NCBI GenBank assembly: GCA_900321865.1
Contig: ONXP01000003.1
Coordinates: 1-63,916 of the forward strand
Direction: 5' to 3'
From: an uncultured Elusimicrobia bacterium
Lineage (GTDB): Bacteria > RUG730
Length of the DNA stretch: 63,916 bases
Below the pieces are notes generated by a model. It was not told the DNA's origin and made no database searches. It saw nothing but the letters and a program-made list of their open reading frames with translations. Position 1 is the first letter of the stretch. The number at the start of each line of letters is the position of its first letter. Below, piece by piece: positions 22,036 through 40,396 of this stretch. Both the position numbers and the translations under genes were made by a program.

Positions 22036-22070
22036 TAAAAAAACCTGCTAGAAAAAACTAGCAGGTTTTT
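22036..22070. terminator. Bidirectional rho-independent terminator between the GT2 gene (+) and groEL (-)
   Basis: An A-run is followed by the stem cctgctag, the loop aaaaaa, the stem ctagcagg and then ttttt (22044-22070). Confidence 0.6.
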
Positions 22071-22113
22071 GAAATTTTTGAAACAAAAATATTATTAATA
22101 ATTTAAAATATTA

Positions 22114-24047
<1,934 letters not shown>

Positions 24048-24089
24048 TTTATCCCCCTTATGAAACAATATTAAATTTTTAATTAAAAA

Positions 24090-24116
24090 TTAGCAATCTA
24101 ACCGGTTGATTGCTAA
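24090..24116. promoter_or_regulatory. CIRCE (HrcA operator) inverted repeat TTAGCAATC-N9-GATTGCTAA upstream of groES
   Basis: A perfect 9-bp inverted repeat with a 9-nt spacer. The CIRCE consensus is TTAGCACTC-N9-GAGTGCTAA. Confidence 0.7.
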
Positions 24117-24143
24117 TTTTATTTTTTTTGTATGTGTTGTCAA
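24116..24143 (-). promoter_or_regulatory. Putative sigma70-type promoter for groESL (TTGACA-N16-TAAAAT), immediately upstream of CIRCE
   Basis: The reverse complement of 24138-24143 is TTGACA. The reverse complement of 24116-24121 is TAAAAT. The spacer is 16 nt. AT-rich background makes this uncertain. Confidence 0.35.
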
Positions 24144-24228
24144 GTTTTTTAATTATATTACTTTTATAAAGTATAAAAATGTGTTAAAATTCTATAAATT
24201 TTTTAAAAATTAGAGGAGAATTTGAATT

Positions 24229-25632
24229 TTGAAAAGTTATAATCTTAATTTTTTAGACAATAATTTTTTAAATAAAAAATATACAATTTTGGGTTTCGGA
24301 AAAAGTGGAGAAGCGAGCTTAGAATTATTAAATCAATTAAATATAAAAAATATTTTTGTAAGCGATACGAATAAAAATATTTTAGGAAAACTAGAAAATT
24401 ATAAAAAAAATGGGCTAATTTATGATTTTGAAATAGGAGAACATTCTGACAAAATTTTAGATTCTGATATAGTTGTGGCTAGTCCTGGGATAAATAAAAA
24501 TCTACAGATTTTTCAAAAAATTAAAGATAAAAATCTTGAAATAATTTCAGAATTAGAATTAGGTTTTAGACATATTGATTCAAAAAATATTATAGCAATA
24601 ACAGGAACAAATGGAAAAACTACGACAGTAAATATTATTAATGAAATATTAAAAGCATACAAAAAGCCTTCGCATCTTTGTGGCAATGTCGGAGTGCCTA
24701 TAACAAAAATTGTAAAAAATGTAAAAAAAGACGATTTTGTTATTATAGAGGTGAGTAGCTATCAATTGGAATTTATAAAAAATTTTCATGCAAAAATTTC
24801 AGCTATCACCAATATCACTCCAGATCATTTATATAGATATGGAAAGATTGAAAATTATGCGAAAGTAAAATTTAATATTTTTCATAATCAAGATAAAAAT
24901 GATATTGCTTTAATAAATTTAGATGACGATTTTATAAAAAATTTTGCACATCAAAAATTTTTACAAAATTTAATTCAAGTTAAAACATTTTCACTTTTTG
25001 ACAAAAATGCTGATATTTTTTATGACGAAAATTTGAAAAAAATTATTTTTAAAAAATATTTGTGGGAATTTGATGTAAAACATTTAAAAATTTTGGGGAA
25101 ACATAATATCCAAAATATAATAATTTCTATTTTGGCTTTAGAAGATATTGTAAAAAAAGACAATTTTAAACTTTTAGAAAATTTTTTAGAGAATTTTTTA
25201 GGGATAGAGCACAGGATAGAATTTGTAAATGAAATCAAAAATATAAAGTTTTATAATGATTCAAAATCGACTAATTACGATTCTACTGAGGTGGCTCTAA
25301 AGGCTTTTGAAAGTGGCGAAAAAAATATAATTTTAATTTTGGGTGGGCAACATAAAGGGTTTTCATTTGAAAAGATGAAAAAATTAATCAATGAAAAAGT
25401 CAAATATTTGTTTTTGTTTGGGGAAGCAAAAACTAGATTGTTTAATGAATTAGATGGAAGCACTGAAATAATTATAAAAAATAACTTGGATGAAATTATA
25501 AATGGTGATTTATTAAAATTGGTTAACTTTGGGGATATCGTGCTTTTTTCTCCAGGATGTGCGAGCTTTGACCAGTTTAAAAATTTTGAAGAAAGAGGAA
25601 AATATTTTAAAGAATTAGTAAATAAATTGTAA
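24229..25632 (+). CDS. murD: UDP-N-acetylmuramoylalanine--D-glutamate ligase (TTG start)
   Basis: ILGFGKSGEA (N-terminal Rossmann), ITGTNGKTT (P-loop), 467 aa. Confidence 0.9.
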   Translation: MKSYNLNFLDNNFLNKKYTILGFGKSGEASLELLNQLNIKNIFVSDTNKNILGKLENYKKNGLIYDFEIGEHSDKILDSDIVVASPGINKNLQIFQKIKDKNLEIISELELGFRHIDSKNIIAITGTNGKTTTVNIINEILKAYKKPSHLCGNVGVPITKIVKNVKKDDFVIIEVSSYQLEFIKNFHAKISAITNITPDHLYRYGKIENYAKVKFNIFHNQDKNDIALINLDDDFIKNFAHQKFLQNLIQVKTFSLFDKNADIFYDENLKKIIFKKYLWEFDVKHLKILGKHNIQNIIISILALEDIVKKDNFKLLENFLENFLGIEHRIEFVNEIKNIKFYNDSKSTNYDSTEVALKAFESGEKNIILILGGQHKGFSFEKMKKLINEKVKYLFLFGEAKTRLFNELDGSTEIIIKNNLDEIINGDLLKLVNFGDIVLFSPGCASFDQFKNFEERGKYFKELVNKL

Positions 25633-25734
25633 AATATTTTAATATTAAAAGTTATCAAAATTTAGCAGAAACTTTTTGGTATAATAAATCAAAAAATTAA
25701 ACAAAATATCGCAGATTAAAAAGGATTTTTAAAA

Positions 25735-27462
25735 ATGTTAAAGTTGACCTTTGAAAATATTTTTCTCACTTTAAATCAATTAAAAAATTTCAGCAAAAAT
25801 TTTACATTTTCGATAATCAATGAAAATAAAAATCTGTTTATTTCATCTGCAACGATTAATTCTAAGGGAAAAAATGAAAATTCTTTATTTTTTGCAATAA
25901 AAGGAAAAAATGTTAACGGACTAAATTTTTTATTAGATGCAAAGGAAAATGGTGCAAAATATTTTTTAGTAGAAAAAGAAAATTGGGAAAATAGATCAAA
26001 AATTTTTAAAAATGATGAAATTTTAAAGAAAATAGAAAATTTAGAAAATGTAATAGTATCAAATGATCCAGAAAAAACTTTTTTATTTTTGGCAAGGGCT
26101 TTTTTAAATTTAGCAGAACAAGAATCAATTAAAAAAAATAACATTTTTCATAAAATAATAATAACTGGTAGCACTGGGAAAACAACAACAAAAAATTTTC
26201 TTTCCTTCGCACTTAAAAATATTTATGGAGAGGAAAAAGTTTTTGCTAGCGAAAAAAATTTAAATAATTCATTGGGTGTTCCATTAAATATTTTTAAATT
26301 GACTGGCGAGGAAAAAATTTGCATTTTTGAAGTTGGAATTAGTAATAAAAACGAGATGGATATTTTAGCAAATATTATAAATCCTGATGTTGGAGTTATT
26401 TTAAATATTGGACCATCGCATTTAGAATATTTAAAAGATTTACAAGGGGTTTGTGATGCAAAGTGGGAGTTAGTAAAACATATTAAAAAAAATGGAGTTT
26501 TATGCCTTAATATTTCTGATTTTCATGAAAAAGAAAATTTTTTGTTTGAAAAATTAAAAAAAAATATATCTTTTCTAGAAAAGAATAAAATAAAATTATC
26601 ATTATTTGGTAATATTCAAAGTTTAATAGAAAATAAGAAAAATCTCAGGTTTTATAAAAAATATAACTATAATTATCTAAAATTTTTGTTGAAAACTAAA
26701 ATTTGTTTTTTTGGGAAAATAGGGAAATTAGATTATGATAATTTTTATACAAAAAACTTTTTAGAACAAAAAATATCTGTATTTTCTAAACGAGGAAATT
26801 CTATTTTTACGACTAAAATTTTAGAAAATGCAGGACTTTCTTCACTTCTTGCAGTAATCTCAATAGCTAAAAGATTTAATATAAATGTTTTTAGCAAAAA
26901 ATTTAAAAATATTATTTCAAAATTTTCAAATACTCATGATGACGAGTTTCTTGAAAAAAAAGGAATGCGTTTTTTTATAAATAAAAAAAATAATATTTTT
27001 TATATAAATGATGCTTATAATGCGAATCCTATTTCTATGGAAAATAGTCTAAAAATTTTATCAAAAATAGATCCTAATGAAAATAATAAAATAGTTATTC
27101 TGGGAGATATGTTAGAATTGGGAAAGGAAGAAGATTTTTTTCATAAAAATTTAGCTAAAAAAATTTTAGATATAAACTTTAAAAAAGTTATTTTGATAGG
27201 AGAAAAAACGAAATATACTTTTTTAGCCTTAAAAGGTTATTTAAATGATAGTAATTTAAAAAATTTTACAAAACTTAATGAATTTTATAAAAAAAGCAAT
27301 TCTTTTTTAGATGAATTTATAAAAAATAATATTTTAAAGTTTGAAAATGTAGATGAATTTATTATTTTTTTAGAAAAAAATTATATTTTTGAAAAGAATG
27401 ACATTGTTTTTATCAAAGGTTCTAGAAAAATGAAATTGGAAAAAATTATAGATTTTTTATAA
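25735..27462 (+). CDS. murF: UDP-MurNAc-pentapeptide synthetase MurF, with extra inserted segments (575 aa)
   Basis: ITGSTGKTTTKNF, GVPLNIFKL and DAYNANPISMENSLKIL (MurF DSYNANP motif). Confidence 0.8.
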   Translation: MLKLTFENIFLTLNQLKNFSKNFTFSIINENKNLFISSATINSKGKNENSLFFAIKGKNVNGLNFLLDAKENGAKYFLVEKENWENRSKIFKNDEILKKIENLENVIVSNDPEKTFLFLARAFLNLAEQESIKKNNIFHKIIITGSTGKTTTKNFLSFALKNIYGEEKVFASEKNLNNSLGVPLNIFKLTGEEKICIFEVGISNKNEMDILANIINPDVGVILNIGPSHLEYLKDLQGVCDAKWELVKHIKKNGVLCLNISDFHEKENFLFEKLKKNISFLEKNKIKLSLFGNIQSLIENKKNLRFYKKYNYNYLKFLLKTKICFFGKIGKLDYDNFYTKNFLEQKISVFSKRGNSIFTTKILENAGLSSLLAVISIAKRFNINVFSKKFKNIISKFSNTHDDEFLEKKGMRFFINKKNNIFYINDAYNANPISMENSLKILSKIDPNENNKIVILGDMLELGKEEDFFHKNLAKKILDINFKKVILIGEKTKYTFLALKGYLNDSNLKNFTKLNEFYKKSNSFLDEFIKNNILKFENVDEFIIFLEKNYIFEKNDIVFIKGSRKMKLEKIIDFL

Positions 27463-27596
27463 TTTGAAGAAAACTTTTGTAGAAATATAAAATTTTTATT
27501 ACTTAATTTTAAATTTTTTTATTTTTTAAAAATCTTAAATATTTTTATTTATTAAAAATTTAGGGAATGTTAAAACTTTTCTAGAAATTCTAGAAA

Positions 27597-28151
27597 TTAT
27601 TTTTTGTGAACTTTTTTATAAGTTTTTTGGCAAAAATTTCTATAATTTTTTTTATACTTTACATGTCTATATTTTACTGGGTCATACTGATAGCAACCTA
27701 TGCATCCTAACTTTTCATCATAATTTTCGTTTCCTTCATAGAATGAAAAAGGATTTCCTAAAATATTCTTTGCATCCCACCTCTTGCCAGTTTCTTTACA
27801 TTTTTTGCAGATTTGCCTTTTTATATCATTTGCTGCCTTACATAAAGGTTGAAAATCTTCTATTCTTTGACTAGAAATATTTGAGACATTTTTATCACTC
27901 TTTCTGCCATCTTTATGGTCTATTTCAATATATGTATTTTCACTTTTTCCATTAATACCTAACATCACACAATTTTTATTTTTATAAAAATCTTTTATAT
28001 CCTGCCTAATAGTATTTTTAAAATTAAAATTTTTATTAAAACCATTTAATCTAATTCTATCAATAGAGTTTCCAGAAGTTATATTTTTATCAAATTCTAT
28101 TATATATTTTTTGGCGAGAATAGAACTTTTTCTGCTACCTGTTTCCACCAT
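27597..28151 (-). CDS. HNH-family (beta-beta-alpha-Me) endonuclease, probable type II restriction endonuclease
   Basis: IEIDHKDGRK...NV...DFQPLCKAANDIKRQ is the HNH motif. It is followed by CKKC...CIGC zinc-ribbon cysteines. It lies directly downstream of the MTase on the same strand. Confidence 0.6.
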   Translation of the reverse strand: MVETGSRKSSILAKKYIIEFDKNITSGNSIDRIRLNGFNKNFNFKNTIRQDIKDFYKNKNCVMLGINGKSENTYIEIDHKDGRKSDKNVSNISSQRIEDFQPLCKAANDIKRQICKKCKETGKRWDAKNILGNPFSFYEGNENYDEKLGCIGCYQYDPVKYRHVKYKKNYRNFCQKTYKKVHKK

Positions 28152-28278
28152 TACCTAATTGTAAACTCTGATATTTTCCTATAAATTCACGAGACCAGAC
28201 CCATCTATTTTTTCCTAATTTATTAGGTTCAGCAAGTTCTAAAAAAAGTTCTGTTTTTGTAAATTTTTTATTTTTCAT
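28135..28278 (-). CDS. Small 47-aa ORF translationally coupled to the HNH gene (function unknown)
   Basis: ATG at 28278. Its stop TAG overlaps the ATGGTG start of the HNH ORF by 17 nt in another frame. Product is MKNKKFTKTELFLELAEPNKLGKNRWVWSREFIGKYQSLQLGNGGNR. Confidence 0.3.
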   Translation of the reverse strand: MKNKKFTKTELFLELAEPNKLGKNRWVWSREFIGKYQSLQLGNGGNR

Positions 28279-28307
28279 ATTAAATATTTTAAAATTTTTA
28301 TAAAAAT

Positions 28308-29114
28308 TTATTTCATTTTAAATACAAAAATATATTCATGTTTAAAAATATAAAAACCGCCTTTCATAGCTCTATATCTCCAGAGTCCACCAGATCCCAG
28401 CTTTCCTTTATTTCCTTCTATATTTTTTATAATTATTCCTTTCATCAAACAATTAAAATTTTTCTTTATCAATTCCATCACATAAAAAGAAAGTGGAATA
28501 ACCTCTGATTTTTTATAAATATCACCAATAACAATAGCAAAATATTTATCTTTTTTTAAAAATTTTAAAAAAATCTCACAGATAATTTTAAATTTATCTA
28601 AAAACTTTTCTAAATCTTCTTCATTAGATAAATCGTTTTTATTATCAGTAAATTTTATTATATCCATATATGGAGGATGCATTAAAATAAAATCTACTTT
28701 TTTACTAAAATTATTAAACTTTTTAAAAGCTTCTTCTAAACTTTTATCAATTTTTTCTCCAGAAAGAGAATCCTCTTCTTTCAAATAAAAATTACTTTTA
28801 TTAAAATCTAGCCCCATACTTTCATAAATATAATTAATCATATTAGGATTAATATCAAAGCCTATATATTTCCTATTAAGCTTTTCACATTCAAATAAAG
28901 TCGTTCCAGAGCCTGCAAATGGTTCTAAAACTAAATCATTTTCATCGGTATATCTACGAATAAGTTGATTAGGAATCTGTGGAATAAAATTCCCATGATA
29001 AATATTTTTATGCTTTCCTGTTTTATCTCTACTAGAAATTAACCAAAGAGAATCTACATTTATATCTAGCATGTTTGATTCTAATTTTTGTTTATTTATA
29101 TTTTCTTCTTTCAA
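28308..29114 (-). CDS. DNA amino-methyltransferase (N6A/N4C), motif order X-I...IV with atypical HPPY catalytic tetrad
   Basis: KHKNIYHGNFIPQIPNQLIRRYTDENDLVLEPFAGSGTT matches PF01555-type motif X plus I (hptqKP..L...LI...gdlVLDPFaGSGTT). ILMHPPYMD sits in the (D/N/S)PPY position. Confidence 0.8.
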   Translation of the reverse strand: MKEENINKQKLESNMLDINVDSLWLISSRDKTGKHKNIYHGNFIPQIPNQLIRRYTDENDLVLEPFAGSGTTLFECEKLNRKYIGFDINPNMINYIYESMGLDFNKSNFYLKEEDSLSGEKIDKSLEEAFKKFNNFSKKVDFILMHPPYMDIIKFTDNKNDLSNEEDLEKFLDKFKIICEIFLKFLKKDKYFAIVIGDIYKKSEVIPLSFYVMELIKKNFNCLMKGIIIKNIEGNKGKLGSGGLWRYRAMKGGFYIFKHEYIFVFKMK

Positions 29115-29305
29115 TGTTTACTCCAAAATATTATGAAAAACTTACTTAATATAAATTTTAATATAACAATTATTATATTAAACTAGAAAAAATTTAATAT
29201 TTATAATTTTAATACAAATAAAAGCTATTTGTTTCTATTCTAAAATGTTTTTGAAAATATATTTTTAAATAACTAAGAGAAAATCAAAAATTATATTGAT
29301 ATGTT

Positions 29306-32300
29306 TTAATTGAATAGTTTTCGATAATTTTCAAAAACTTTAATAATAATTTTATTTTTATCTGTTTCGCCTTGAGCTATAGATGTACTAACCCATTCAT
29401 CTATCATACCTATATCACCATAAATAATTTTTGAAAAAGTATTTTGGATAATATTTTTTATTTCTTCGTTTTTTTGTATTATTCTTTTAAATTCTAAGAT
29501 ATAGTTAGTAGATAATGTATCTAAATAATATAAAAGCTTAACACAAAATTCTTCATTTTTTGCATAATCAAAATTTTCCATATCTTTTAAAAAGTTAATT
29601 AAATTTATTTCATAATAATTATTATAGGGAAACAATTTAGGATATAAATCAGAAACAAGTTTTATAATCTCATTTTTATTTTTTGATGATGTAAATTTAT
29701 CTAGTTTAATAAATACCAATAGTAAATCTAAAAAGTTCTGTAAATTTCTTGTATCATCATAGGAAGCAAAGATAAATAAGAATAATAACTTCACTATAAG
29801 GATTTTATTTATCTTTTTTAAATAAATGAATCTCTTTTTTTCTATTCGTAGATATACTTTTAAAATTTTTATAATTTCATATTCTATTTTTTCGTTAGGT
29901 TTTAATATATCTAATTTCAGTGCATCAAAATATAAATCATAAACAGAAAATTTTTCACAAAAAAGATTAAGATTATTTTTTGTTTTCTCCTGAAATTCTA
30001 CTGAAAAATTATTAAACAAACTAAATGTTGATTTAAAAAATTTTTTATATGTTAATATTAATTTATAGTATTTCTTAATATAGTCATCTATATAAATGTC
30101 TATATATTTTCGTCTATTTATATTGATTTTATCTATGACATATATTATTTTGTTTTTTTTATCATAATTTTTAATGAGTTCTCTAGCTTTGCTTATATCT
30201 ATTTCTTTAATTCTTGTTTGTTCTTCCCATTTATCAGTATAAAAAAATTCTTCCACATCCTTATTGAATGTAAAATTATGCTCTTTATTCTTAAAAAATT
30301 TCAAAATACCTTGAATAATATCGTTAATAGTTTCGTCAAAACAAAATTTTTTATCTTTAAAATTAAAATAATAAGAATGCTTAGCTATTGAATTTAAAAA
30401 TTCGTCTAAAATATTAAAATCTATACAATCAATATATTTACTTAAATAGTGTTTATAAAATATAGATAAAGATAATTCATAATTTTTATACAAATCAAAA
30501 AACTTATTAAATATCTTATTTTTTTCTTCTTTTGAAAGGGAAATATTAGAGAAAAGAATCATAAAATTATTCATTTTATCTATTATTTTTTCTGTAAAAT
30601 TATCTTCTTCTAATTTATTTATTATACAATTGATAATATTTTCAAAACTTTCAATTAATCTATTTTTATCTTCTTCATTACATTTAAGATTTTTAAAATC
30701 ATATATTTTTTTATATTTATCAATGAATTTTATTAATTCTTCATTGTTTAAATATTCAATCATTATATAAAATTCAATATATATAAACTCTTTTGCTAAT
30801 TCTTCATTATGATGATCATATCCATTAATACGATAATAATATCCATTAAACTTATACATAAATACAATATCAATTAACTCTAAAATATCAGATTTAAAAG
30901 TACCTTCTATCTGTTTAAGATTTTTGGGATAAAAAAGATTTAAAAACAAAAAATTTTCTATAATAGAGCAAAAACAAAAAAATAAAGCATTGTACCAATA
31001 TGAAAAAAATTCTTCTGGCAATGATATACTATTAAAATGAACCCATTTATGTTTATTTATGTTATAAAAACATTCTTTAAAAGCATTAAGTTTATAATTA
31101 TTCATAATAAATGCTATGTATGGGAATGTTTCATCTGTATTTATTTTATAAACTTTTCTTCTTTGTTTATAAAATTCCTTTTCTTTTAAATCAATTTCAT
31201 TTTTAACTTTGTGATTAGAATAAAATGTTTCATAAGATATCGGTCTAGGTGGTGGGTTTTGTAAATCCTTATCTAGCTGTAGCCGTAAAATAGAACCTCT
31301 ATTATTTTCAAATATTGCATTAATTAAAGGGTTTTTTTTATAAGAATCATGAATTTTATTTAATTCTTCTTTAGCTTTTTCATATTTACACAGTCTATAA
31401 AAATAGTAAGCTTTATAAAAAACATTAATTGGTTTTGTTTTACTAGGATTATATGATTCATCTTCCACTAATTGTTTTAGTCCTATGTAATCAAAATTGT
31501 AAATTTTTTGAAAAAATTTCTCTATTTCTTCTTTTTTAGGTTTAAAAAATTTTGAAAACTCATATAAATTAACTTCTGTTGTTGGGTAAAAAATATAAGT
31601 CGGTAATTCAATATTATCATCATATTTTGTATACAAAGTTTCTCGGTAACTAGATTGATATTTAAGCATTAAAAAATTATTCTTTGTTAAAATGCTTAAA
31701 ATAATTTTTAATTTTTTTACAATACGAGTTTTTTTAGTAGTTTGATTGTCTTTTTTAAAATTTTCTATTTTTAACTTTCTATTTTCATTTGTCATTTCAT
31801 CAGAAATGTCATATTTTTCACATAATTTTTTATCCTTTTTAAGATATTCTAAAAATAATTTTTCTGGTAATAAATATATTAGATTATCACGAATTGCATC
31901 AATTAAAATTTTAAATTTTACATTATTACTTATTAACACATTTGAGATATCAATATTATAATATCTATTACGATTCTTTATATCATAATCTTCGTTCAAT
32001 AAATCAAGAATATCTTTATTAGTGTAACTATTTAATTTTTTAAGTATTTTTAATTTTTGATAATAATAATCTACGACTTCTTTTATTTCATATAATTCAT
32101 CATATGTTAGAAAAAACAAAGATTTATATGTATCACGACCTATTTCTTTTAATGATTTTATATTTTCTTCTATATTTTGTCTTATATTATCGTTTTTTTT
32201 CAAAAAATCTTCTATTTCATCTTTTATTTTAGTATAAGGTATGCGAATTATATTTTGATTTTTATAATAATTATCTATTATTTCTTTATTTTCTTCTGTG

Positions 32301-33094
32301 CTTGGAGTATCAATATTTAATAAATATGCTTTTTTAGTTTTTTCTCCTAAAATATCTTTTATAGAATTAAATATCATTTTTACATTTATATCATTGACAC
32401 TATAACCGATAAAAAGAACTGTATGCGATGCAACTATTGCCTTTATATAAGTTTCTATTAAGGTGAAATTCTTAGAATACGATAAATAGTCATCCTCTTT
32501 TAAAACAATATTATTTTTAGAAAAATCTCCATGCATTTTTATTATTACATTTTTTGAATGTATGTTAGGAATATCTTTATCTTCTTTAACAACATAATAC
32601 CCTGGAAATTCTTTTCCTAAAAGATTATCATAATTCGTTGTAATAATATATTTAGGTTTTAAAGAATCAAAAATAAGTTTATGAATCTCATTTTGCTTAA
32701 AATTATCAATATTTTTAAAAATATCTTTTAATTTTTTTAAATACTCATCCTCCCCTTTTTCATTAAAATAATATTGAGGAATCTTTAAATATTCATCCTG
32801 GCTATAATCATCTTTTTTATTAGGCTTTAAAGAATTAAAAATAAATTTATGAATCTCATTTGGCTTAAAATTATCAATATTTTTAAAAATATATTCTAAT
32901 TTTTTATTATACTCATTCTCATCTTTTTCTTTTTTATAACCTAAATCTTCTGCAAAAGATTTAATTACATCTTTATAGCTAGGAGCTCCAGAATTTACCG
33001 ATATTCCTGCACCTACAAAAAGGCATAGTTTATCATCCTGTATTGCTCTTTGAATCTTTTTAATAGAATCTAAATAAATTTTATCCATACTCAT
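29306..33094 (-). CDS. Defence-associated sirtuin (DSR2-like): N-terminal SIR2_2 NADase domain plus ~960-aa uncharacterised alpha-helical C-terminal region
   Basis: LFVGAGISVNSGAPSYKDV (GAGIS), ITTNYDNLLG (catalytic Asn) and IIKMHGDFSKNNIVLKEDDY (catalytic His) define SIR2_2/ThsA/DSR. Total length is 1262 aa with no other recognisable motif. It is a single-gene system. Confidence 0.7.
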   Translation of the reverse strand: MSMDKIYLDSIKKIQRAIQDDKLCLFVGAGISVNSGAPSYKDVIKSFAEDLGYKKEKDENEYNKKLEYIFKNIDNFKPNEIHKFIFNSLKPNKKDDYSQDEYLKIPQYYFNEKGEDEYLKKLKDIFKNIDNFKQNEIHKLIFDSLKPKYIITTNYDNLLGKEFPGYYVVKEDKDIPNIHSKNVIIKMHGDFSKNNIVLKEDDYLSYSKNFTLIETYIKAIVASHTVLFIGYSVNDINVKMIFNSIKDILGEKTKKAYLLNIDTPSTEENKEIIDNYYKNQNIIRIPYTKIKDEIEDFLKKNDNIRQNIEENIKSLKEIGRDTYKSLFFLTYDELYEIKEVVDYYYQKLKILKKLNSYTNKDILDLLNEDYDIKNRNRYYNIDISNVLISNNVKFKILIDAIRDNLIYLLPEKLFLEYLKKDKKLCEKYDISDEMTNENRKLKIENFKKDNQTTKKTRIVKKLKIILSILTKNNFLMLKYQSSYRETLYTKYDDNIELPTYIFYPTTEVNLYEFSKFFKPKKEEIEKFFQKIYNFDYIGLKQLVEDESYNPSKTKPINVFYKAYYFYRLCKYEKAKEELNKIHDSYKKNPLINAIFENNRGSILRLQLDKDLQNPPPRPISYETFYSNHKVKNEIDLKEKEFYKQRRKVYKINTDETFPYIAFIMNNYKLNAFKECFYNINKHKWVHFNSISLPEEFFSYWYNALFFCFCSIIENFLFLNLFYPKNLKQIEGTFKSDILELIDIVFMYKFNGYYYRINGYDHHNEELAKEFIYIEFYIMIEYLNNEELIKFIDKYKKIYDFKNLKCNEEDKNRLIESFENIINCIINKLEEDNFTEKIIDKMNNFMILFSNISLSKEEKNKIFNKFFDLYKNYELSLSIFYKHYLSKYIDCIDFNILDEFLNSIAKHSYYFNFKDKKFCFDETINDIIQGILKFFKNKEHNFTFNKDVEEFFYTDKWEEQTRIKEIDISKARELIKNYDKKNKIIYVIDKININRRKYIDIYIDDYIKKYYKLILTYKKFFKSTFSLFNNFSVEFQEKTKNNLNLFCEKFSVYDLYFDALKLDILKPNEKIEYEIIKILKVYLRIEKKRFIYLKKINKILIVKLLFLFIFASYDDTRNLQNFLDLLLVFIKLDKFTSSKNKNEIIKLVSDLYPKLFPYNNYYEINLINFLKDMENFDYAKNEEFCVKLLYYLDTLSTNYILEFKRIIQKNEEIKNIIQNTFSKIIYGDIGMIDEWVSTSIAQGETDKNKIIIKVFENYRKLFN
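32652..32940. repeat. In-frame ~168-bp imperfect tandem duplication inside the SIR2 domain coding region
   Basis: Unit 32652-32819 vs unit 32820-~32940. Both read ttagg(t/c)tttaaagaat(c/t)aaaaataa(g/a)tttatgaatctcattt(t/g)gcttaaaattatcaatatttttaaaaatat... The protein repeat is ...YIFKNIDNFKPNEIHKFIFNSLKP / ...DIFKNIDNFKQNEIHKLIFDSLKP. Confidence 0.75.
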
Positions 33095-33753
33095 ATATTT
33101 TTATAAAAATTTAAGAAAGTTAAATACGATTTTTATTATAATAAAATTCCCCAGATTTTTAGAATTCTTTAGTATCATTATCTAGCTCCCCACTATCTTT
33201 ATATTTTTATAAGGTTTCTTATGAAACATTTTAAATAAAAACATAATTCATTTTTATAAAATTTATTATTATAATTTTTATTGTAGAGATAAGCATTTAT
33301 TATTTTTAGATGAATATTAAATAAAATATTTCTTTAAAAAATTTTTATTTTAAATAACTAAAATTTTATCCGAAAATAAATTTTAAATTTTTAAGCTTAT
33401 TATTCCTATTTTTTGTTTAATTAAGATTTAAATTTTTTTATTTTAATTTATAGTGATTGTTATATTGATGAAAATTTTATATTTATTACTCTATAATTTA
33501 ATAAAAAACAAAATTAATTTAATAATTGTTTTATAAAATTTTTAGATTTTATAGAAAAATATTAGTAATTATTCTAAAATAAATTAAATTCTTTAGTTTT
33601 ATATTTATTTAAAATTTTTGATAAGATAAACTAAACATTATCTTATATATACGAGGTATTTTTGTTATGAGGATTAAAATTTTATTTATTGTTATCATTA
33701 TTTGCTTATTTGATAGTTTAATTTTTTCAAAAAATATAAAAAAAGAGGGAAAT

Positions 33754-34233
33754 ATGGAAAAAAAGGTATTAGTTGCTTATTTTTCAGCTACAGGAACTAC
33801 TAAAAAAGTTGCAGAAAATTTATCAAAGGCAATAAGAGCTGATATTTATGAAATAAAACCTAAAAAACCTTATTCTAATGAAGATTTAGATTGGACCAAT
33901 AAAAACTCCAGAAGTTCCGTTGAAATGGATAAAAAAATAAAACCAGAAATAGAAAAAAATAATTTAGATTTATCAAAATATGAAAAGATTTTTTTAGGAT
34001 TTCCTATTTGGTGGTATGTTGCACCTACCATTATTAATACATTTTTAGAATCATGTGATTTTTCAAATAAAACTATAATTTTATTTGCTACTTCTGGCGG
34101 TTCTAGGTTTGGGAAGACTATAGAAAATTTAAAACCTAGTCTTTCTAATACTGCTAAACTTATAGAAGGAGATATATTAAATCATAACCCTAGCATTAGT
34201 AGATTAAAAACTTGGGCAGAAAAATATATTTAG
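33754..34233 (+). CDS. Flavodoxin family protein
   Basis: KVLVAYFSATGTTKKVAE (FMN phosphate loop) and GFPIWWYVAP motifs. Start set at the internal ATG 33754 after an AGAGGG RBS. Confidence 0.75.
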   Translation: MEKKVLVAYFSATGTTKKVAENLSKAIRADIYEIKPKKPYSNEDLDWTNKNSRSSVEMDKKIKPEIEKNNLDLSKYEKIFLGFPIWWYVAPTIINTFLESCDFSNKTIILFATSGGSRFGKTIENLKPSLSNTAKLIEGDILNHNPSISRLKTWAEKYI

Positions 34234-34248
34234 TTATAGGAGTTATAA

Positions 34249-35259
34249 TTGAAATTTTTAGATGAAAAGCTAGTTTTAGATAAATATAAAGACAAAAAAA
34301 TTTTGGTTCTTTATGGTGGGATATCTAGCGAAAGAGAAATATCTATAGAAACAGGAAAATCTATTTTACAAAGTCTTTTAGATATGAATTTGAATGCAAA
34401 AGGAATAGATTTTAAATTTGATAAATTTGATATTTTTGATAAGGAAAATCCTGATATTGTTTTTATAGCTCTTCATGGAAAAGGTGGAGAAGATGGAAGA
34501 TTGCAGGGTTTTTTAGATTTGAAAAATATATGTTATACAGGAGCTAACTTTTTAGCTTCTGGTATAGCTATGAATAAATTTATAACTAAAAAATTAATTT
34601 CTATGTCTAATGTTCCTACAGCTAAATTTTTTAAATTAGATTTTTCTAGTTTTCCTGAAAATTTTGTAGATTATAAAATTTCTGAATCTGAAAATTTTAA
34701 AAAATATATAGAGGATAATATTTTAAAGGAAACTTTAAATTTCCCTCTAGTTGTAAAACCTAATAATAATGGCTCGGCTATAGGTGTATATATAGTTAAT
34801 GATATAGATGAATTGTTGATTGCTATAGACAAAGTAAAAGAAATAGATACCGAAATTTTGATAGAAAAGTATATAAATGGCAGAGAATTTAGCATAGGAC
34901 TGATAGGTGATATTTTTCTTCCTGTATTAGAAATAAGATCAAAAAATGCTTTTTATGATTATGAAGCGAAATATACAGATGGGAAGTCTAATCATTTTAT
35001 TCCAGAGGATTTAGATAAAGAAGTTTTAAAAAGAATGCAAAATATGGCTATAGATGTAGCTAATATTTTAGGAGTAAAAGGAGCTTCTAGAGTAGACATG
35101 ATTATGGAGGGGAATAATATTTTTGTATTGGAAATTAATACAATCCCTGGCATGACTAAAAATAGTCTTCTCCCATATGCAGCAGAAAAACATGGCATAT
35201 CATTTAATGAATTAGTCCTTTTAATTTTAGAAAATGCTTATGGAAAAAATAGAAAATAA
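34249..35259 (+). CDS. ddl: D-alanine--D-alanine ligase (TTG start)
   Basis: ILVLYGGISSEREISIETGK, FIALHGKGGEDG, ATP-grasp EINTIPGMT; 336 aa. Confidence 0.9.
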   Translation: MKFLDEKLVLDKYKDKKILVLYGGISSEREISIETGKSILQSLLDMNLNAKGIDFKFDKFDIFDKENPDIVFIALHGKGGEDGRLQGFLDLKNICYTGANFLASGIAMNKFITKKLISMSNVPTAKFFKLDFSSFPENFVDYKISESENFKKYIEDNILKETLNFPLVVKPNNNGSAIGVYIVNDIDELLIAIDKVKEIDTEILIEKYINGREFSIGLIGDIFLPVLEIRSKNAFYDYEAKYTDGKSNHFIPEDLDKEVLKRMQNMAIDVANILGVKGASRVDMIMEGNNIFVLEINTIPGMTKNSLLPYAAEKHGISFNELVLLILENAYGKNRK

Positions 35260-38200
35260 AGAAGAATTTTCTTTTTTAAAATTTTGTGAAAAATTAAAAA
35301 AATTTTTAAGATTTGATTATTTTGAAAAGATAATTAATCATTACGAAGAATCAAAAGAATTCCGTCTTCAAGGAATAACTTTTTCTAGCATTAATTTCCT
35401 AGTTCCTTTAATTTATTCAAAAATCAAAACTTTTAATAAATCTATTATTTATATAATAGATGATAAAGAAACATCTCTCTTTGTAAAGATGGAGATGATG
35501 TTTTTTGTAAAAATTTTAAATTTAGATATAAAAAAAGATGAAATTTTTTTATTTTCGGAAGATGAAGGAGAAAATAAAAATTTACTTTTTGAGAAATTAA
35601 ATGAAAATTTGATTCAAAATAAACCATGTATAGCTGTCTGGCATAGTAATGATTTGTTAGATATAGGGATAGATATAAAGAATTTAGAAAAAAATAAATT
35701 TGAACTAAAAATTGGAGAAAAATTAAATATATTATCATTAAAAGAAATATTATTAAAAAATTCGTTTAATTTTGTAGATGAAGTTTATGAGAAAAATGAT
35801 TTTAACATGAGAGGAGAAATTTTAGATTTATGGCCAATTAATTACGAAAATCCTCTTAGAATTACATTTGACGATGAAATTATAGAATCTATTTATGAAT
35901 TTGATATAACTACCCAGAGGAGAAATCTCAAAAAAAAATATGAAAGCATTTTTATAAAAAATTTTTCTAAAAACAATAATACTATTTATTTAGATAATTT
36001 TGATCCAAAAAATTTTATCTGTTTTTATGACAATAAAATTATAGGAAATACAAAGTCTTATTTATTAGAAAAAAACTTTTTTTCATTTTTAATAGAACCT
36101 TTTAACAAAGCTTCAAAAGATATAAAATTATACGAGTCTATGGCATTTAATGCTGATATAGATTTAATTACAAAATATTTAGGCGATTTATTGGACGACG
36201 ATTACAATATTTTTATAGTGTTTTATAAGGATGCAGATATTGCTAATTTTAAATCAACTCTGTTTAAAAACAAAAAATTTAGAAATTCTAAAAATTTACA
36301 TTTTTTTAATGGCTTTATTAGAGAAGGGTTTTATTCATTAGAAGAAAAAATAGCATTTTTTACGGAAAAAGAAATTTTTAATAGAAACTTAAAAGATGAA
36401 ATTATTGTAAAAGATAAAAAAATTAATAAAAAAGTAGATGTTTTTAGAGAAAATTCAATTGATTATAAAATAGGAGATTATGTAGTTCATAATAATTTTG
36501 GTATAGGGAAATTTTTAGGTTTTAGTAATATAAAAGTTGGAGAAAAAAATTCTGAATATATAACAATAGAATATTCTAAAGGCGATAAACTTTTTGTTCC
36601 AATATTTGATTTTAAATTTATAAGCAAATATTCAAATTATGATTCTGATTATATCCCTATGTTAGATTCTATGGATGGATTTACTTGGAAGAAATCTAGA
36701 GCAAAAATAGAACAAAAAATTTTTGAAATGGCAAATAGCATAATATCACTTCAAGCAATCAGAAAAAAAATATCAGGTTTTAGTTTTAAAGAAAATAAAG
36801 TGATGGAGGACGATTTTAGAAATACTTTTCCATACGAGGAAACAGAAGATCAAAAAAAGGCTATAGAGGAAGTTTTGTTAGATATGGCAAGTGATACTCC
36901 TATGGAAAGATTAATTGCAGGTGATACTGGATACGGAAAAACTGAGGTTGCTATTCGTGCAGCATTTAGAGCTATGATAAATAGTAAACAGGTTTTATTA
37001 ATTTGTCCTACGACTTTATTATGTAAGCAACATTATAATACTTTTAAAGAACGATTTTCTTCTTATCCATTTAAAATATCTATGTTATCTAGATTTTTAA
37101 CAAAAAAAGATATAGAGGATGCTAAAAAATCAATTCTTCAAGGGAAGATAGATTTAATAATTTCTACTCATATAGCATTAAGGTCAAATATAAAATTCAA
37201 AGATTTAGGTCTAGTTATAATAGATGAAGAACATAGATTTGGTGTAAAAGATAAAGAAAAATTAAAAATGTTTCAAAAAAATATTGACATATTATATCTT
37301 AGTGCAACTCCTATTCCTAGGACTTTATCTATGGCTCTTAATGGTATAAAAGATATTTCTGTAATAGAAACACCGCCTCCTATTAGAAAAAATATTACTA
37401 CATATATTTATGAATATGATGCAAAGATAATAAAACAAGCTATAGATTTTGAGTTATCTAGAGGGGGACAGGTTTTTTATTTATATAATAATGTAGAAGA
37501 TATAGAAAAGAAAAGGGAGGAACTTGTTTCAATGTTTCCCGATAAAAATATAGCTACTGCTCACGGACAAATGATGCCTAATGAGTTAGATGAAAAAGTA
37601 ACAAATTTTATTGATAAGAAATACGATATTTTAGTAGCAACGACGATAATAGAATCAGGTCTTGATATCCCAAAAGTCAATATGATAATAATTGATAGAG
37701 CGGATCTTCTAGGTTTAGCACAAATATATCAATTGAGAGGGAGAGTTGGGAGAGGTTATGAGAAAGCTTTTTGTTATTTGTTATTTCCTAAAGATTTTAG
37801 TTTAAATAAAAATGCTATCAAAAGATTAGAAGCAATAAAGTCTTTCGAGGGTTTTGGAGCTGGAATAAAACTAGCTATGAGAGATTTAGAAATAAGAGGT
37901 GCGGGGAATCTTTTAGGGAAAAAACAACATGGCTACATTAAGGAAATCGGCTTTGAATTATATATGGATATGTTAAAAAAGGCTATTTCCAAAATGAATG
38001 GAGAGGCATTAGAAGATATAGATTGTGAAATAGATTTACCTATCAGTTTTTATATTCCTAAAACATATATTCCTAGTCCACCAGTTAGAATGTATTTTTA
38101 TAAAGAATTGATTAGTATAACAAGTGATGAAGAGGCTAAAAATATAAAAAAAGAACTTTTGGATAGATTTGGAACAATTCCTAAGGAATTAGAAAATTTT

Positions 38201-38446
38201 TTTGAAGTCTTAAATATTAAAAATTTAGCAAAAAACTTGAAAATTTCTTCTATAAAAGAAAATAAAAATGTTATTACTATAAATTTTTCTGATCCTAAAA
38301 TAATAGATATAAATATTATTTTGGATATGATGGAAAAAGAAAAAGGAAAAATTAAATTTAAAAATAATTCTCCTAATGCAATAGATTTATATGTTAATAA
38401 AAATAAATTAGATTATATAAAAAATATTTTAACAAAATTAAAATAA
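35234..38446 (+). CDS. mfd: Transcription-repair coupling factor
   Basis: 1070 aa. It has an RNAP-interacting domain, LIAGDTGYGKTEVAIRAA (helicase motif I), VIIDEEHRFG (DEEH), QLRGRVGRG (motif VI) and a C-terminal TRCF domain. Confidence 0.95.
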   Translation: MLMEKIENKEEFSFLKFCEKLKKFLRFDYFEKIINHYEESKEFRLQGITFSSINFLVPLIYSKIKTFNKSIIYIIDDKETSLFVKMEMMFFVKILNLDIKKDEIFLFSEDEGENKNLLFEKLNENLIQNKPCIAVWHSNDLLDIGIDIKNLEKNKFELKIGEKLNILSLKEILLKNSFNFVDEVYEKNDFNMRGEILDLWPINYENPLRITFDDEIIESIYEFDITTQRRNLKKKYESIFIKNFSKNNNTIYLDNFDPKNFICFYDNKIIGNTKSYLLEKNFFSFLIEPFNKASKDIKLYESMAFNADIDLITKYLGDLLDDDYNIFIVFYKDADIANFKSTLFKNKKFRNSKNLHFFNGFIREGFYSLEEKIAFFTEKEIFNRNLKDEIIVKDKKINKKVDVFRENSIDYKIGDYVVHNNFGIGKFLGFSNIKVGEKNSEYITIEYSKGDKLFVPIFDFKFISKYSNYDSDYIPMLDSMDGFTWKKSRAKIEQKIFEMANSIISLQAIRKKISGFSFKENKVMEDDFRNTFPYEETEDQKKAIEEVLLDMASDTPMERLIAGDTGYGKTEVAIRAAFRAMINSKQVLLICPTTLLCKQHYNTFKERFSSYPFKISMLSRFLTKKDIEDAKKSILQGKIDLIISTHIALRSNIKFKDLGLVIIDEEHRFGVKDKEKLKMFQKNIDILYLSATPIPRTLSMALNGIKDISVIETPPPIRKNITTYIYEYDAKIIKQAIDFELSRGGQVFYLYNNVEDIEKKREELVSMFPDKNIATAHGQMMPNELDEKVTNFIDKKYDILVATTIIESGLDIPKVNMIIIDRADLLGLAQIYQLRGRVGRGYEKAFCYLLFPKDFSLNKNAIKRLEAIKSFEGFGAGIKLAMRDLEIRGAGNLLGKKQHGYIKEIGFELYMDMLKKAISKMNGEALEDIDCEIDLPISFYIPKTYIPSPPVRMYFYKELISITSDEEAKNIKKELLDRFGTIPKELENFFEVLNIKNLAKNLKISSIKENKNVITINFSDPKIIDINIILDMMEKEKGKIKFKNNSPNAIDLYVNKNKLDYIKNILTKLK

Positions 38447-38527
38447 TAATATTATAAAAGTAAAAACTTGAAAAATAGTTTTTTATTAATTATAATCAAA
38501 AATACTTTTTGTTTCTTTGGAGGATTT

Positions 38528-39391
38528 ATGAAACATAAAATAAAATTGTTTTCGGTTTTGTTTTTTATTTTAATTTCATTTTTAGCTTGTAAAAAAAGTC
38601 AAAATAGTCCTACCTTAATTAAAACCAAAAATGATATTTTTACATTAAACGATTTTAAAGATAGATTAAATGAATTAAAACGATATGGATATCAGAATAT
38701 TACCAAGAGAGATATGGAAGGAATCTTAAAAGATTTGGAAAGAGAATCGGTAATGTTTCAAATTGCAAAAAATCGTGGCTATGATAAAAAAGACGAATAT
38801 TTATCTAGAGCAAAAATGTTTGAAAAACAAAATTTAATAAATTCCCTTATGAGAGAGCTTACACAAGAAAATCATCCTTTGTATGTATCAGAAGAAGAAA
38901 TAAAGTCAGATTATGATAAAAATAAAGAATATTACGATAAGCCTATTCAGATAAAAGTTGCTCATATTCTTTTAAAAGATGAAACTTTAGCTAAAAATAT
39001 TCTTGCAGAAATACGAAATGGTGGAGATTTTGCAGTTTTGGCCAGCAGTTATTCTTTTGACAATTCCAACAAAAATAATGGTGGAGAGCTAGATTGGTTT
39101 GGCAAGGATGCAACTTTTGTTCCTGAATTTAAAGATGCTGCTTTTGCCTTGGCAAATGTTGGGGATGTTTCTGATCTAGTTGAGACATCTTTTGGTTTCC
39201 ATATAATCAAAAAATTAGATGAGAGAGTGGGAGAGCCTATTACATTTGATAATGTAAAAAATGAAATTCGCAATAAATTATTTATGCAAAAATTTGATAA
39301 TTGGTATCAAAATGAATCAAAAAAAGTTTCTGTAAAAACTAATGAAAAACTTCTTTCAACTATAAATATTGAAGAAGAAAAGGGGGAATAA
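38528..39391 (+). CDS. Parvulin-type peptidyl-prolyl isomerase lipoprotein (PrsA/SurA-like)
   Basis: Start set at the internal ATG after a GGAGGA RBS. The signal with lipobox is LISFLAC. The parvulin domain is VAHILLKD...GGELDWFGKD...FGFHIIK. Confidence 0.7.
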   Translation: MKHKIKLFSVLFFILISFLACKKSQNSPTLIKTKNDIFTLNDFKDRLNELKRYGYQNITKRDMEGILKDLERESVMFQIAKNRGYDKKDEYLSRAKMFEKQNLINSLMRELTQENHPLYVSEEEIKSDYDKNKEYYDKPIQIKVAHILLKDETLAKNILAEIRNGGDFAVLASSYSFDNSNKNNGGELDWFGKDATFVPEFKDAAFALANVGDVSDLVETSFGFHIIKKLDERVGEPITFDNVKNEIRNKLFMQKFDNWYQNESKKVSVKTNEKLLSTINIEEEKGE

Positions 39392-39393
39392 TA

Positions 39394-40368: not shown

Positions 40369-40396
40369 AATAAATTAAAAGGGCATAAATTGACTT

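What the first reader, a model, noticed from the sequence alone, without database searches (positions are those of the whole stretch)
27463..33666. Defence island (type II R-M plus sirtuin) inserted in the cell-wall gene block between murF and fldA/ddl
murD and murF (+) are followed by ~6.2 kb of minus-strand genes before flavodoxin-ddl-mfd resume on the + strand. Those minus-strand genes are an HNH endonuclease, a small ORF, an MTase and the DSR2-like protein. The block is flanked by a 134-bp and a 570-bp AT-rich non-coding stretch. It contains no integrase, transposase or tRNA. So it looks like a mobility-gene-free defence island at a conserved locus, a typical hotspot arrangement.
Basis: inference. 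Interest (0 to 1): 0.7.

Follow-up and report, generated by a model that had tools for sequence, protein, structure and literature searches.

The report
Small defence island after murF
A 5.8-kb block of anti-phage genes (a restriction-modification pair whose nuclease is broken by a frameshift, plus a divergent DSR2-type NAD-depleting sirtuin) sits between two cell-wall genes of an uncultured rumen bacterium and is absent from that spot in its closest known relative; it is a real but ordinary accessory defence island.

Summary
Between murF (25735-27462, +) and a flavodoxin-ddl-mfd block (from 33667, +) lie three minus-strand genes, not four.

- **Methyltransferase.** An intact 268-aa N6/N4 enzyme.
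- **SIR2 protein.** It is 1262 aa. Its SIR2 domain, and separately its non-SIR2 remainder (residues 300-1262), match B. subtilis DSR2 best, by sequence, family profile and predicted fold.

The closest relative available (MurF 75% identical) has murD-murF-[371 bp]-flavodoxin-ddl-mfd with nothing in between. Its intergenic DNA aligns to window 27463-27493 plus 33337-33666. That defines a clean 5,843-bp indel (27494-33336) with no flanking repeats, tRNA, integrase or transposase.

The "functional type II R-M" reading is weakened, because the nuclease gene is a pseudogene in all three assemblies (99.9-100% identical to one another) that carry it. The "hotspot" claim could not be tested properly: only two related lineages exist in the databases. 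One weak hint supports it, since two outgroup strains lose homology 27 bp after murF.

Verdict: a new member of known kinds, of modest interest.

The parts
27494..33336 (.). The accessory block (5,843 bp) that is present in the window and absent from the sister-species contig L014
   Evidence: blastn: L014 6291-11727 matches window 22035-27493, and L014 11707-21698 matches window 33337-43273, at about 84% identity. The junction is ambiguous by at most 21 bp. GC is 20.0% against 25.1% for the window.
27597..28151 (-). C-terminal 184-aa fragment of the IceA/NlaIII-family restriction endonuclease (pseudogene)
   Evidence: PF05315 ICEA, E 6.5e-82, profile positions 42-215/218.
28135..28278 (-). 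N-terminal 47-aa fragment of the same endonuclease. The +1 frame break lies within 28135-28156.
   Evidence: PF05315 positions 1-40, E 2.1e-12. A single-base deletion restores a 226-aa ORF with E 1.4e-100. The same split is called in L004 and L016.
28308..29114 (-). Intact type II DNA methyltransferase (N6/N4 class), 268 aa, with a TTG start preceded by GGAG
   Evidence: PF01555, E 5.9e-24. PADLOC MTase_II PDLC03351, E 8.7e-78. It aligns end to end with 260-280-aa relatives, and the invariant FxGSGT and HPPY motifs are kept.
29306..33094 (-). DSR2-family defence sirtuin, 1262 aa: an N-terminal SIR2 NADase domain followed by an alpha-solenoid remainder that matches DSR2's MID and CTD
   Evidence: PF13289, E 8.5e-22. 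The best PDB sequence match is B. subtilis DSR2, E 6.5e-35. Foldseek on residues 300-1262: the top 29 hits are all DSR2, E 5e-10 to 4e-4. Foldseek on residues 1-420: DSR2, E 1e-18. The family profile matches DSR2 end to end, E 7.8e-128.
32531..32635 (-). Codons for the conserved catalytic pair N154 (TTNYD) and H188 (KMHGD), which correspond to DSR2 N133 and H171
   Evidence: Alignment to DSR2. Both columns are invariant across 77 family members. The role of N133 and H171 is taken from PMC10981675.
32652..32939 (-). In-frame 168-nt tandem duplication inside the SIR2 domain. The detected copies are 32652-32771 and 32820-32939, 87% identical.
   Evidence: the repeat finder family D1. It appears as an insertion relative to DSR2 between residues 51 and 88. 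It is modelled as two extra helices, with the Rossmann core unchanged.
33095..33336 (.). Island-borne upstream region of the sirtuin gene, 242 bp
   Evidence: It has no counterpart in L014.
27463..27493 (.). Native DNA downstream of the murF stop, up to the left junction
   Evidence: Aligns to L014 11699-11727.
33337..33666 (.). Native upstream region of the flavodoxin gene, starting at the right junction
   Evidence: Aligns to L014 11707-12069 at about 68% identity, and the alignment runs on into the gene.
25735..27462 (+). murF, the left anchor gene
   Evidence: Mur ligase domains. Homologues are named UDP-MurNAc-tripeptide--D-Ala-D-Ala ligase.
33667..35259 (+). Flavodoxin (PF12682) and ddl, the right anchor genes
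   Evidence: The same order is seen in L014.

Best explanation
Window 27494-33336 is a 5.8-kb accessory defence block. It lies in the chromosome of an uncultured, very AT-rich rumen bacterium (probably Elusimicrobiota), between murF and a flavodoxin-ddl-mfd operon.

**Module 1: an NlaIII/IceA-type type II restriction-modification pair (M gene, then R gene).**
- The methyltransferase is intact.
- The endonuclease is inactivated by a 1-nt frameshift.
- The module therefore now most likely only methylates DNA. The target is inferred to be CATG and was not tested. It does not restrict.

**Module 2: a single-gene DSR2-family system.**
- By analogy with B. subtilis DSR2, its long alpha-solenoid C-terminal region is inferred to bind a phage structural protein.
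- That binding would switch on the N-terminal SIR2 NADase.
- NAD+ would be depleted and the infection aborted.
- The trigger is unknown, because the sensor part is only 12-14% identical to DSR2 in the structural alignments.

**How it got there.** The block most likely entered as an insertion in this lineage. It could also have been exchanged by homologous recombination through the conserved flanks. It left no repeats and carried no mobility genes.

**Shown:** gene identities, the frameshift, the empty site in the sister species, the conserved catalytic residues, and fold-level DSR2 homology of both parts.

**Inferred:** CATG specificity, NADase activity, abortive infection, and the direction of the indel.
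For: **Empty site**
- L014 has groEL-groES/murD-murF-[371 bp]-flavodoxin-ddl-mfd-ppiC-surA-PSP1-mgtE.
- blastn breakpoints are 27493 and 33337, and no L014 sequence is left unaccounted for.

**R-M module**
- PF05315 matches both fragments.
- The restored ORF covers the whole profile, E 1.4e-100.
- IceA1-HpyIM and NlaIII are a CATG R-M system, and iceA1 is commonly frameshifted in H. pylori (PMC13340068).
- The MTase is full length, with family-invariant motifs.

**DSR2 module**
- phmmer against the PDB gives DSR2 as best hit, E 6.5e-35, with TTNYD and KMHGD aligned to N133 and H171.
- The model of residues 300-1262 (pLDDT 70, pTM 0.69) hits only DSR2 chains in ranks 1-29. Generic solenoids follow at E of 6e-3 or worse.
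- The SIR2 model (pLDDT 82.5) matches DSR2 at E 1e-18, with TM about 0.8 against SIR2-only chains.
- The family profile matches DSR2 residues 21-1004, E 7.8e-128, and the SIR2-less DSR2 fragment at E 2e-37.
- The closest homologue, P0002, sits among Abi_alpha and SEFIR/TIR genes near an integrase.

**Persistence**
- The island is 99.9-100% identical in three rumen assemblies.
- A 3.8-kb ORF remains open in DNA of 19% GC.
Against: - Only one informative relative exists, so loss in L014 is not excluded.
- Island composition is within the host range, so composition gives no independent sign of foreign origin.
- No PADLOC or NCBIfam DSR2 model matches the sirtuin. PADLOC gives ThsA-SIR2 and a weak Dsr1 hit. 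The PADLOC Dsr2 model also covers only the SIR2 domain of Bacillus relatives and misses P0002.
- The 56-aa duplication lies next to the segment that holds a DSR2 tetramerisation residue (Y71, PMC10981675) and could impair assembly.
- CATG is under-represented (O/E 0.56), but so are TCGA, ACGT, GATC and GTAC, so this does not single out CATG.
- No biochemical activity was or could be tested.
Confidence: 0.78

Rival explanations
1. The block is ancestral to this clade and was deleted in the L014 lineage, rather than inserted in the window lineage.
For: Only two genomes share this gene order, so the direction of the event is not resolved. Island GC and codon usage fall within the host range, which fits long residence. 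The endonuclease has had time to decay.
Against: L014's intergenic region equals the two window flanks, with no scar. No direct repeats flank the block that could have mediated a precise excision. The cargo belongs to sporadically distributed defence families. The sirtuin's nearest homologue is only 37% identical and lies in an unrelated context.
Confidence: 0.17
2. The slot just downstream of murF is a recurrent integration or exchange hotspot, the R-M pair and the sirtuin arrived separately, and other strains hold other cargo there.
For: Two outgroup strains (L015 and L021, 94.9% identical over murD-murF) lose homology 27 bp after the murF stop, against 31 bp in the window/L014 pair. L021's 70-nt tail is 43% GC in a contig of 25.6% GC. 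Both contigs end there. The sirtuin's closest homologue has no adjacent IceA or MTase gene, so the two modules are not a conserved unit.
Against: The outgroup evidence is 70-88 nt at contig ends. No actual alternative cargo was seen. The window/L014 difference is a single clean indel. All same-species contigs are near-clonal and carry the same island.
Confidence: 0.3
3. The restriction-modification system is fully functional. The frameshift is either an assembly artefact or is bypassed during translation, for example by a +1 shift at AGG-TAG.
For: The gene is otherwise intact, and the two fragments together cover the whole family profile. The required shift is +1, at the stop codon that ends the first ORF.
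Against: The same sequence occurs in three assemblies from different samples. There is no homopolymer or slippery motif at 28135-28156. The P-site codons AAC and AGG do not re-pair in the +1 frame (read directly from the sequence). Frameshifted iceA1 alleles are common and reported as non-functional in H. pylori (PMC13340068).
Confidence: 0.07
4. The 1262-aa SIR2 protein is not an anti-phage effector. It would instead be a housekeeping or regulatory sirtuin that happens to lie next to an R-M remnant.
For: No curated DSR2 HMM hit. Function was not tested.
Against: It is absent from the sister species. Its SIR2 domain and the rest of the protein (residues 300-1262) each match DSR2 rather than deacetylases. 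Its closest homologue lies in a defence neighbourhood.
Confidence: 0.04

Closest known systems
DSR2 (defence-associated sirtuin 2) of Bacillus subtilis 29R; PDB 8K98, 8WY8, 8XFF and others
   Same: Single-gene system. It has an N-terminal SIR2 domain with the catalytic Asn/His pair (N154/H188 here, N133/H171 in DSR2) and the VLKEDDY segment. A long alpha-helical remainder follows, and its predicted fold matches only DSR2 in the PDB. The family profile aligns with DSR2 over its full length.
   Different: It is 1262 aa against 1005 aa. It has a 56-aa tandem duplication inside the SIR2 domain and further insertions in the solenoid. The non-SIR2 remainder (residues 300-1262) is only 11-14% identical to DSR2 in the structural alignments, so the trigger (tail tube protein for DSR2) cannot be transferred. 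It is not recognised by the PADLOC Dsr2 model. The host is probably Elusimicrobiota rather than Bacillota.
NlaIII R-M system of Neisseria lactamica, and iceA1-hpyIM of Helicobacter pylori (CATG)
   Same: The endonuclease is a full-profile member of Pfam ICEA (PF05315). It is adjacent to, and on the same strand as, a DNA methyltransferase. As in many H. pylori iceA1 alleles, the nuclease gene is broken by a frameshift while the methylase is kept.
   Different: The gene order here is M then R. In H. pylori, hpyIM lies downstream of iceA (PMC13340068). The methyltransferase was not compared directly with M.NlaIII or M.HpyI. Its closest relatives are unnamed metagenomic proteins of 260-280 aa, and CATG specificity is inferred only.
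Mobility-gene-free defence islands and hotspots between conserved core genes, a concept known from Pseudomonas, Vibrio and E. coli genomics (my own knowledge, not tested here)
   Same: Defence cargo lies between conserved housekeeping genes. The site is empty in a relative. There is no integrase, tRNA or repeats.
   Different: Only one occupied state and one empty state were observed. A hotspot is defined by several different cargos at the same site, and that was not shown.
ThsA (Thoeris) and DSR1 SIR2 NADases
   Same: They share the SIR2_2 NADase domain (PADLOC ThsA E 2.8e-24; weak Dsr1 hits).
   Different: There is no SLOG domain and no ThsB/TIR partner gene in the island. The Dsr1 hits are marginal, about 20 bits against a cut-off of 1400. 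The rest of the protein matches DSR2 instead.

Membership tests
DSR2 family | N-terminal SIR2 domain most similar to that of DSR2, with the catalytic Asn and His (N133, H171) | tested here: met
   phmmer against the PDB gives DSR2 as best hit, E 6.5e-35, with TTNYD and KMHGD aligned. N154 and H188 are invariant in 77 homologues. Foldseek on the model of residues 1-420 gives DSR2 at E 1e-18. Residue roles are from PMC10981675.
DSR2 family | The part after the SIR2 domain (in DSR2, the MID and the alpha-solenoid CTD sensor) is homologous to DSR2 | tested here: met
   Foldseek on the model of residues 300-1262: ranks 1-29 are all DSR2 chains (E 5e-10 to 4e-4, TM 0.33-0.55), and the next hits have E of 6e-3 or worse. 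The family profile matches the SIR2-less DSR2 fragment 8ygk at E 2e-37. Sequence identity is only 11-14%, and the model has moderate confidence (pLDDT 70). No separate MID and CTD were delimited in the window protein.
DSR2 family | Recognition by a curated DSR2 HMM (PADLOC PDLC02184) | tested here: not met
   No hit at E of 0.01 or better. The model discriminates poorly: it covers only the SIR2 domain of Bacillus relatives (E 1e-21 to 1e-24), scores below ThsA, and misses P0002. NCBIfam returned only a marginal Dsr1 hit for this protein.
DSR2 family | Homotetramer; NADase activated by a phage tail tube protein and inhibited by DSAD1 | not testable with these tools
   Needs biochemistry. The duplication lies beside the segment that holds DSR2's tetramer-interface residue Y71.
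NlaIII/IceA-type type II R-M system | Endonuclease of Pfam ICEA (PF05315), full length | tested here: not met
   Family membership is clear, but the gene is split by a frameshift into 47-aa and 184-aa ORFs. Only an in-silico repair gives full-length coverage.
NlaIII/IceA-type type II R-M system | Adjacent intact cognate methyltransferase | tested here: met
   The 268-aa N6_N4 MTase lies 29 nt upstream on the same strand. Length and invariant motifs are intact. Cognate pairing is inferred from adjacency.
NlaIII/IceA-type type II R-M system | CATG recognition, with m6A methylation | not testable with these tools
   CATG has O/E 0.56, but four other palindromes are equally or more depleted, so the result is not specific.
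Defence-island hotspot | The same core-gene junction is empty in some genomes and occupied in others | tested here: met
   The window is occupied and L014 is empty, with clean breakpoints.
Defence-island hotspot | Different cargos at the same junction in different genomes | tested here: inconclusive
   The only evidence is 70-88 nt of non-homologous sequence after murF in L015 and L021. No further relatives were found in the genome, metagenome or protein collections.
Integrative mobile element | Integrase or transposase, att or terminal repeats, or a tRNA target | tested here: not met
   No such Pfam domains. No tRNA. Flank repeats are at chance level. Inverted repeats are no better than AT-rich background.

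The most novel reading that the evidence does not exclude
The junction about 30 bp downstream of murF may be a recurrent, mobility-gene-free exchange site for defence cargo in a poorly sampled rumen and gut Elusimicrobiota clade. The enlarged DSR2 relative found there has a duplicated SIR2 segment and a sensor region 11-14% identical to DSR2. It may recognise a phage trigger other than the SPR-type tail tube protein.
Probability: 0.25. Interest if true: 0.5.

Novelty: new member of a known kind. Interest (0 to 1): 0.3.

Why it matters
- It records a DSR2-family sirtuin and an NlaIII-type R-M remnant in an almost unsampled, extremely AT-rich rumen lineage.
- It gives a cleanly delimited occupied/empty pair for a defence island that lacks any mobility gene.
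- It shows a divergent DSR2 with an internal duplication. That protein could help define which parts of the SIR2 and sensor regions tolerate change.
- None of this changes current understanding of these systems.

Tried and rejected
Local alignment of 27463-27596 against 33095-33666 scored 45, against a shuffle mean of 42 with sd 6. Rejected.
- **Terminal inverted repeats.** The pair at 27487-27521 and 33335-33369 (80% complementary) is one of 186 similar AT-rich pairs, and one arm lies outside the island. Rejected.
- **44-nt direct repeat bracketing the sirtuin ORF (29257-29300 / 33093-33136, 70% identical).** It was not the best alignment between the two intergenic regions. The best one was marginal, p about 0.03. 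Treated as chance.
- **Genome-collection scan with Ddl.** It found nothing.
- **Scans with a MurF alignment.** They gave one Elusimicrobiaceae MAG whose contig ends 96 bp after murF, plus unrelated hits.
- **Ddl relatives at 51-56% identity.** They have other gene orders (pgi-ddl-ftsQAZ, mraY-ddl) or contigs starting 84 bp before ddl, so they cannot serve as an outgroup. The ends of L021/L015 and L032 do not overlap.
- **Viral-contig scan with the sirtuin.** No relatives.
- **Promoter and terminator scan.** At chance level: 65 sites found against 69 expected, and no terminators.
- **Rfam.** Nothing in the island.
- **Composition as a sign of foreign origin.** The island genes lie within the host range.
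- **CATG avoidance as evidence of specificity.** Not specific.
- **PDB sequence search with the repaired endonuclease.** No solved relative.
Full report
**Source and setting**

The window is the first 63.9 kb of an 82.8-kb metagenome-assembled contig (ENA ERZ1029114, k87_16434203), and window coordinates equal record coordinates. GC is about 25%. Contigs 99.8-100% identical to the window occur in several rumen assemblies.

The lineage is very poorly sampled. MurF has only two relatives above 35% identity, at 75% and 46%. The 46% relative is labelled an uncultured Elusimicrobiaceae MAG. Ddl relatives at 55% and 43% are labelled Elusimicrobiota and Endomicrobiia. Assigning the host to Elusimicrobiota is an inference from these labels.

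**Observation**

The ORF map and Pfam scan confirm the following layout:

| Feature | Coordinates | Strand |
|---|---|---|
| groEL / groES | 22114-24047 | - |
| murD | 24229-25632 | + |
| murF | 25735-27462 | + |
| Minus-strand genes | 27597-33094 | - |
| Flavodoxin | 33667-34233 | + |
| ddl | 34249-35259 | + |
| mfd | 35234-38446 | + |

The two non-coding flanks are 134 bp and 572 bp. There is no tRNA anywhere in the window, and the only Rfam hit is RNase P RNA, far from the island. None of the island ORFs has an integrase, transposase or recombinase domain.

**The restriction-modification module**

The 184-aa ORF (27597-28151) matches Pfam ICEA (PF05315) at profile positions 42-215. The overlapping 47-aa ORF (28135-28278) matches positions 1-40. 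The second ORF lies in the +1 frame.

Deleting any one base in 28135-28156 gives a 226-aa protein that covers the profile 1-215/218 at E 1.4e-100.

The break is not at a long homopolymer or a slippery motif. The same split is called in contigs from two other samples, L004 and L016. Those contigs are 99.9-100% identical to the window. This rules out a one-off assembly error, but it samples the same clone rather than independent lineages.

The family is that of NlaIII and H. pylori IceA1, which with HpyIM form a CATG system. In H. pylori, iceA1 frequently carries inactivating frameshifts (PMC13340068).

The methyltransferase (28308-29114) appears intact:
- It has a TTG start with a GGAG 6 nt upstream.
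- It hits PF01555 and PADLOC MTase_II at E 8.7e-78.
- An exhaustive search shows many 260-280-aa relatives that align end to end, the best at 54% identity.
- All family-invariant residues are kept, including FxGSGT and HPPY.

The module now most likely methylates DNA but does not cut it. CATG is under-represented in the window (O/E 0.56, z -5.5). TCGA, ACGT, GATC and GTAC are equally or more depleted, so this does not confirm specificity.

**The sirtuin**

The 1262-aa protein has a SIR2_2 domain. Its best PDB sequence match is B. subtilis DSR2, E 6.5e-35. TTNYD and KMHGD align to the DSR2 catalytic residues N133 and H171, and VLKEDDY aligns to the segment that holds D188. N154 and H188 are invariant in an alignment of 77 homologues.

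About 2,000 homologues were found, typically 985-1112 aa and many from Bacillus. The closest non-self hit is only 37% identical over 47% of the protein.

Several lines tie the protein to DSR2 over its length:
- A profile of the family matches DSR2 from residue 21 to 1004 (E 7.8e-128). It also matches a SIR2-less DSR2 fragment (E 2e-37), so the family is the DSR2 family over its full length.
- The AlphaFold model of residues 300-1262 (pLDDT 70, pTM 0.69) gave DSR2 chains as the top 29 PDB hits (E 5e-10 to 4e-4, TM 0.33-0.55). After these there is a sharp drop to generic solenoids at E of 6e-3 or worse and TM about 0.12.
- The model of residues 1-420 (pLDDT 82.5) matches the DSR2 SIR2 domain at E 1e-18, with TM about 0.8 against SIR2-only chains.

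Two points count against simple membership:
- Curated HMMs do not recognise it. PADLOC gives ThsA-SIR2 plus weak Dsr1 hits, and NCBIfam gives only a marginal Dsr1 hit. However, the PADLOC Dsr2 model also covers only the SIR2 domain of Bacillus relatives and misses the closest homologue, P0002.
- The protein is about 250 aa longer than DSR2.

Part of the excess length is an in-frame 168-nt tandem duplication (32652-32771 and 32820-32939, 87% identical). It adds two helices between the GAGxS strand and the TTNYD strand and leaves the Rossmann core intact in the model.

The closest homologue, P0002, lies among Abi_alpha and SEFIR/TIR genes near an integrase and has no IceA or MTase neighbour. This supports a defence role. 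It also shows that the two modules of the island are not a conserved unit.

**Synteny**

The contig of the closest relative is L014 (Logan SRR33322315, 52 kb; MurF 75% and Ddl 79% identical). It reads groEL-groES / murD-murF-[371 bp]-flavodoxin-ddl-mfd-ppiC-surA-PSP1-mgtE-DUF4015.

blastn aligns L014 6291-11727 to window 22035-27493, and L014 11707-21698 to window 33337-43273, at about 84% identity. The L014 intergenic region equals window 27463-27493 plus 33337-33666.

The difference is therefore one clean 5,843-bp indel (27494-33336), with at most 21 bp of junction ambiguity and no leftover sequence.

No significant direct or inverted repeats bracket the block. Island GC (20.0%) and codon usage lie within the range of host genes. 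For example, murF is 20.4% GC.

**Direction of the event, and the hotspot question**

No usable outgroup was found:
- The 46% MurF lineage is represented by two contigs, L015 and L021, that end 88 and 70 nt after homology between them stops.
- A probable Ddl contig of that depth begins 84 bp before ddl.
- More distant Ddl relatives have other gene orders.

L015 and L021 are 94.9% identical over murD-murF but diverge 27 bp after the murF stop. That is almost the same position as the window/L014 breakpoint, which lies 31 bp after the stop. L021's tail is 43% GC in a contig of 25.6% GC.

This is a weak hint that the slot is variable in the clade. It does not demonstrate a hotspot. Insertion is favoured over loss because the empty site has no scar, no repeats are available to mediate excision, and the cargo families are sporadically distributed. 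Loss is not excluded.

**Mechanism**

The most likely reading is a decayed R-M module, with the methylase retained and the nuclease dead, next to an intact DSR2-type abortive-infection gene.

For the sirtuin, the proposed steps are:
1. The solenoid region binds a phage protein.
2. The SIR2 domain is activated.
3. NAD+ is hydrolysed.
4. Infection is aborted.

These steps are inferred from B. subtilis DSR2 (PMC10981675, and related structural papers listed). They are supported here only by conserved catalytic residues and fold homology. The trigger cannot be inferred, because the sensor region is so divergent.

**Verdict**

The finding is real, and most of its interpretation is right. The pieces belong to known families. 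The R-M system is not intact. The hotspot label is unproven. This is a new member of known kinds, of modest interest.

Noticed in passing
window 32652-32939 (- strand, inside the sirtuin gene): There is an in-frame 168-nt tandem duplication whose detected copies are 87% identical. It adds about 56 aa (two predicted helices) inside the SIR2 domain, next to the segment that holds a DSR2 tetramer-interface residue. The ORF stays open and the catalytic residues are kept.
   Followed up: partly
L015 3249-3337 and L021 12630-12700 (outgroup contigs): Two Elusimicrobiaceae strains are 94.9% identical over murD-murF but lose homology 27 bp after the murF stop, and both contigs end within 90 nt. L021's tail is 43% GC against 25.6% for the contig. 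This may mean different content in the same slot.
   Followed up: partly
window about 22035 and leftwards, compared with L014 1-6290: There is a second synteny break between the window and the sister species, just beyond groEL. The window has a glycosyltransferase, aspS and yicC. L014 has a Peptidase_M78 (ImmA/IrrE-like) gene with a small partner ORF, gltX and DegT-type aminotransferase fragments.
   Followed up: no
window 33667-33753: The flavodoxin (PF12682/PRK07116 type, not classical FldA) starts with a hydrophobic extension of about 29 aa that resembles a signal peptide. The extension is conserved in L014, so it is probably real rather than a mis-called start.
   Followed up: no
window 25735-27462: MurF is unusually long, at 575 aa. 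It is 565 aa in L014 and 505 aa in the outgroup, while most homologues listed are about 425-470 aa. This implies lineage-specific insertions.
   Followed up: no
whole window: The palindromes TCGA, ACGT, GATC, CATG and GTAC are all strongly under-represented (O/E 0.15-0.57). This suggests pressure from several restriction systems, or a compositional quirk of this genome.
   Followed up: no
window 47152-47563 (+): Bacterial RNase P RNA class A, 198 bits. It is the only Rfam match in the window.
   Followed up: no
L024/L025 8001-12542: The closest homologue of the sirtuin (P0002, 37% identical) lies in a neighbourhood with Abi_alpha, a SEFIR/TIR_2 protein, a Hypoth_Ymh protein and a phage-type integrase. 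This looks like a conventional defence island in another organism.
   Followed up: partly
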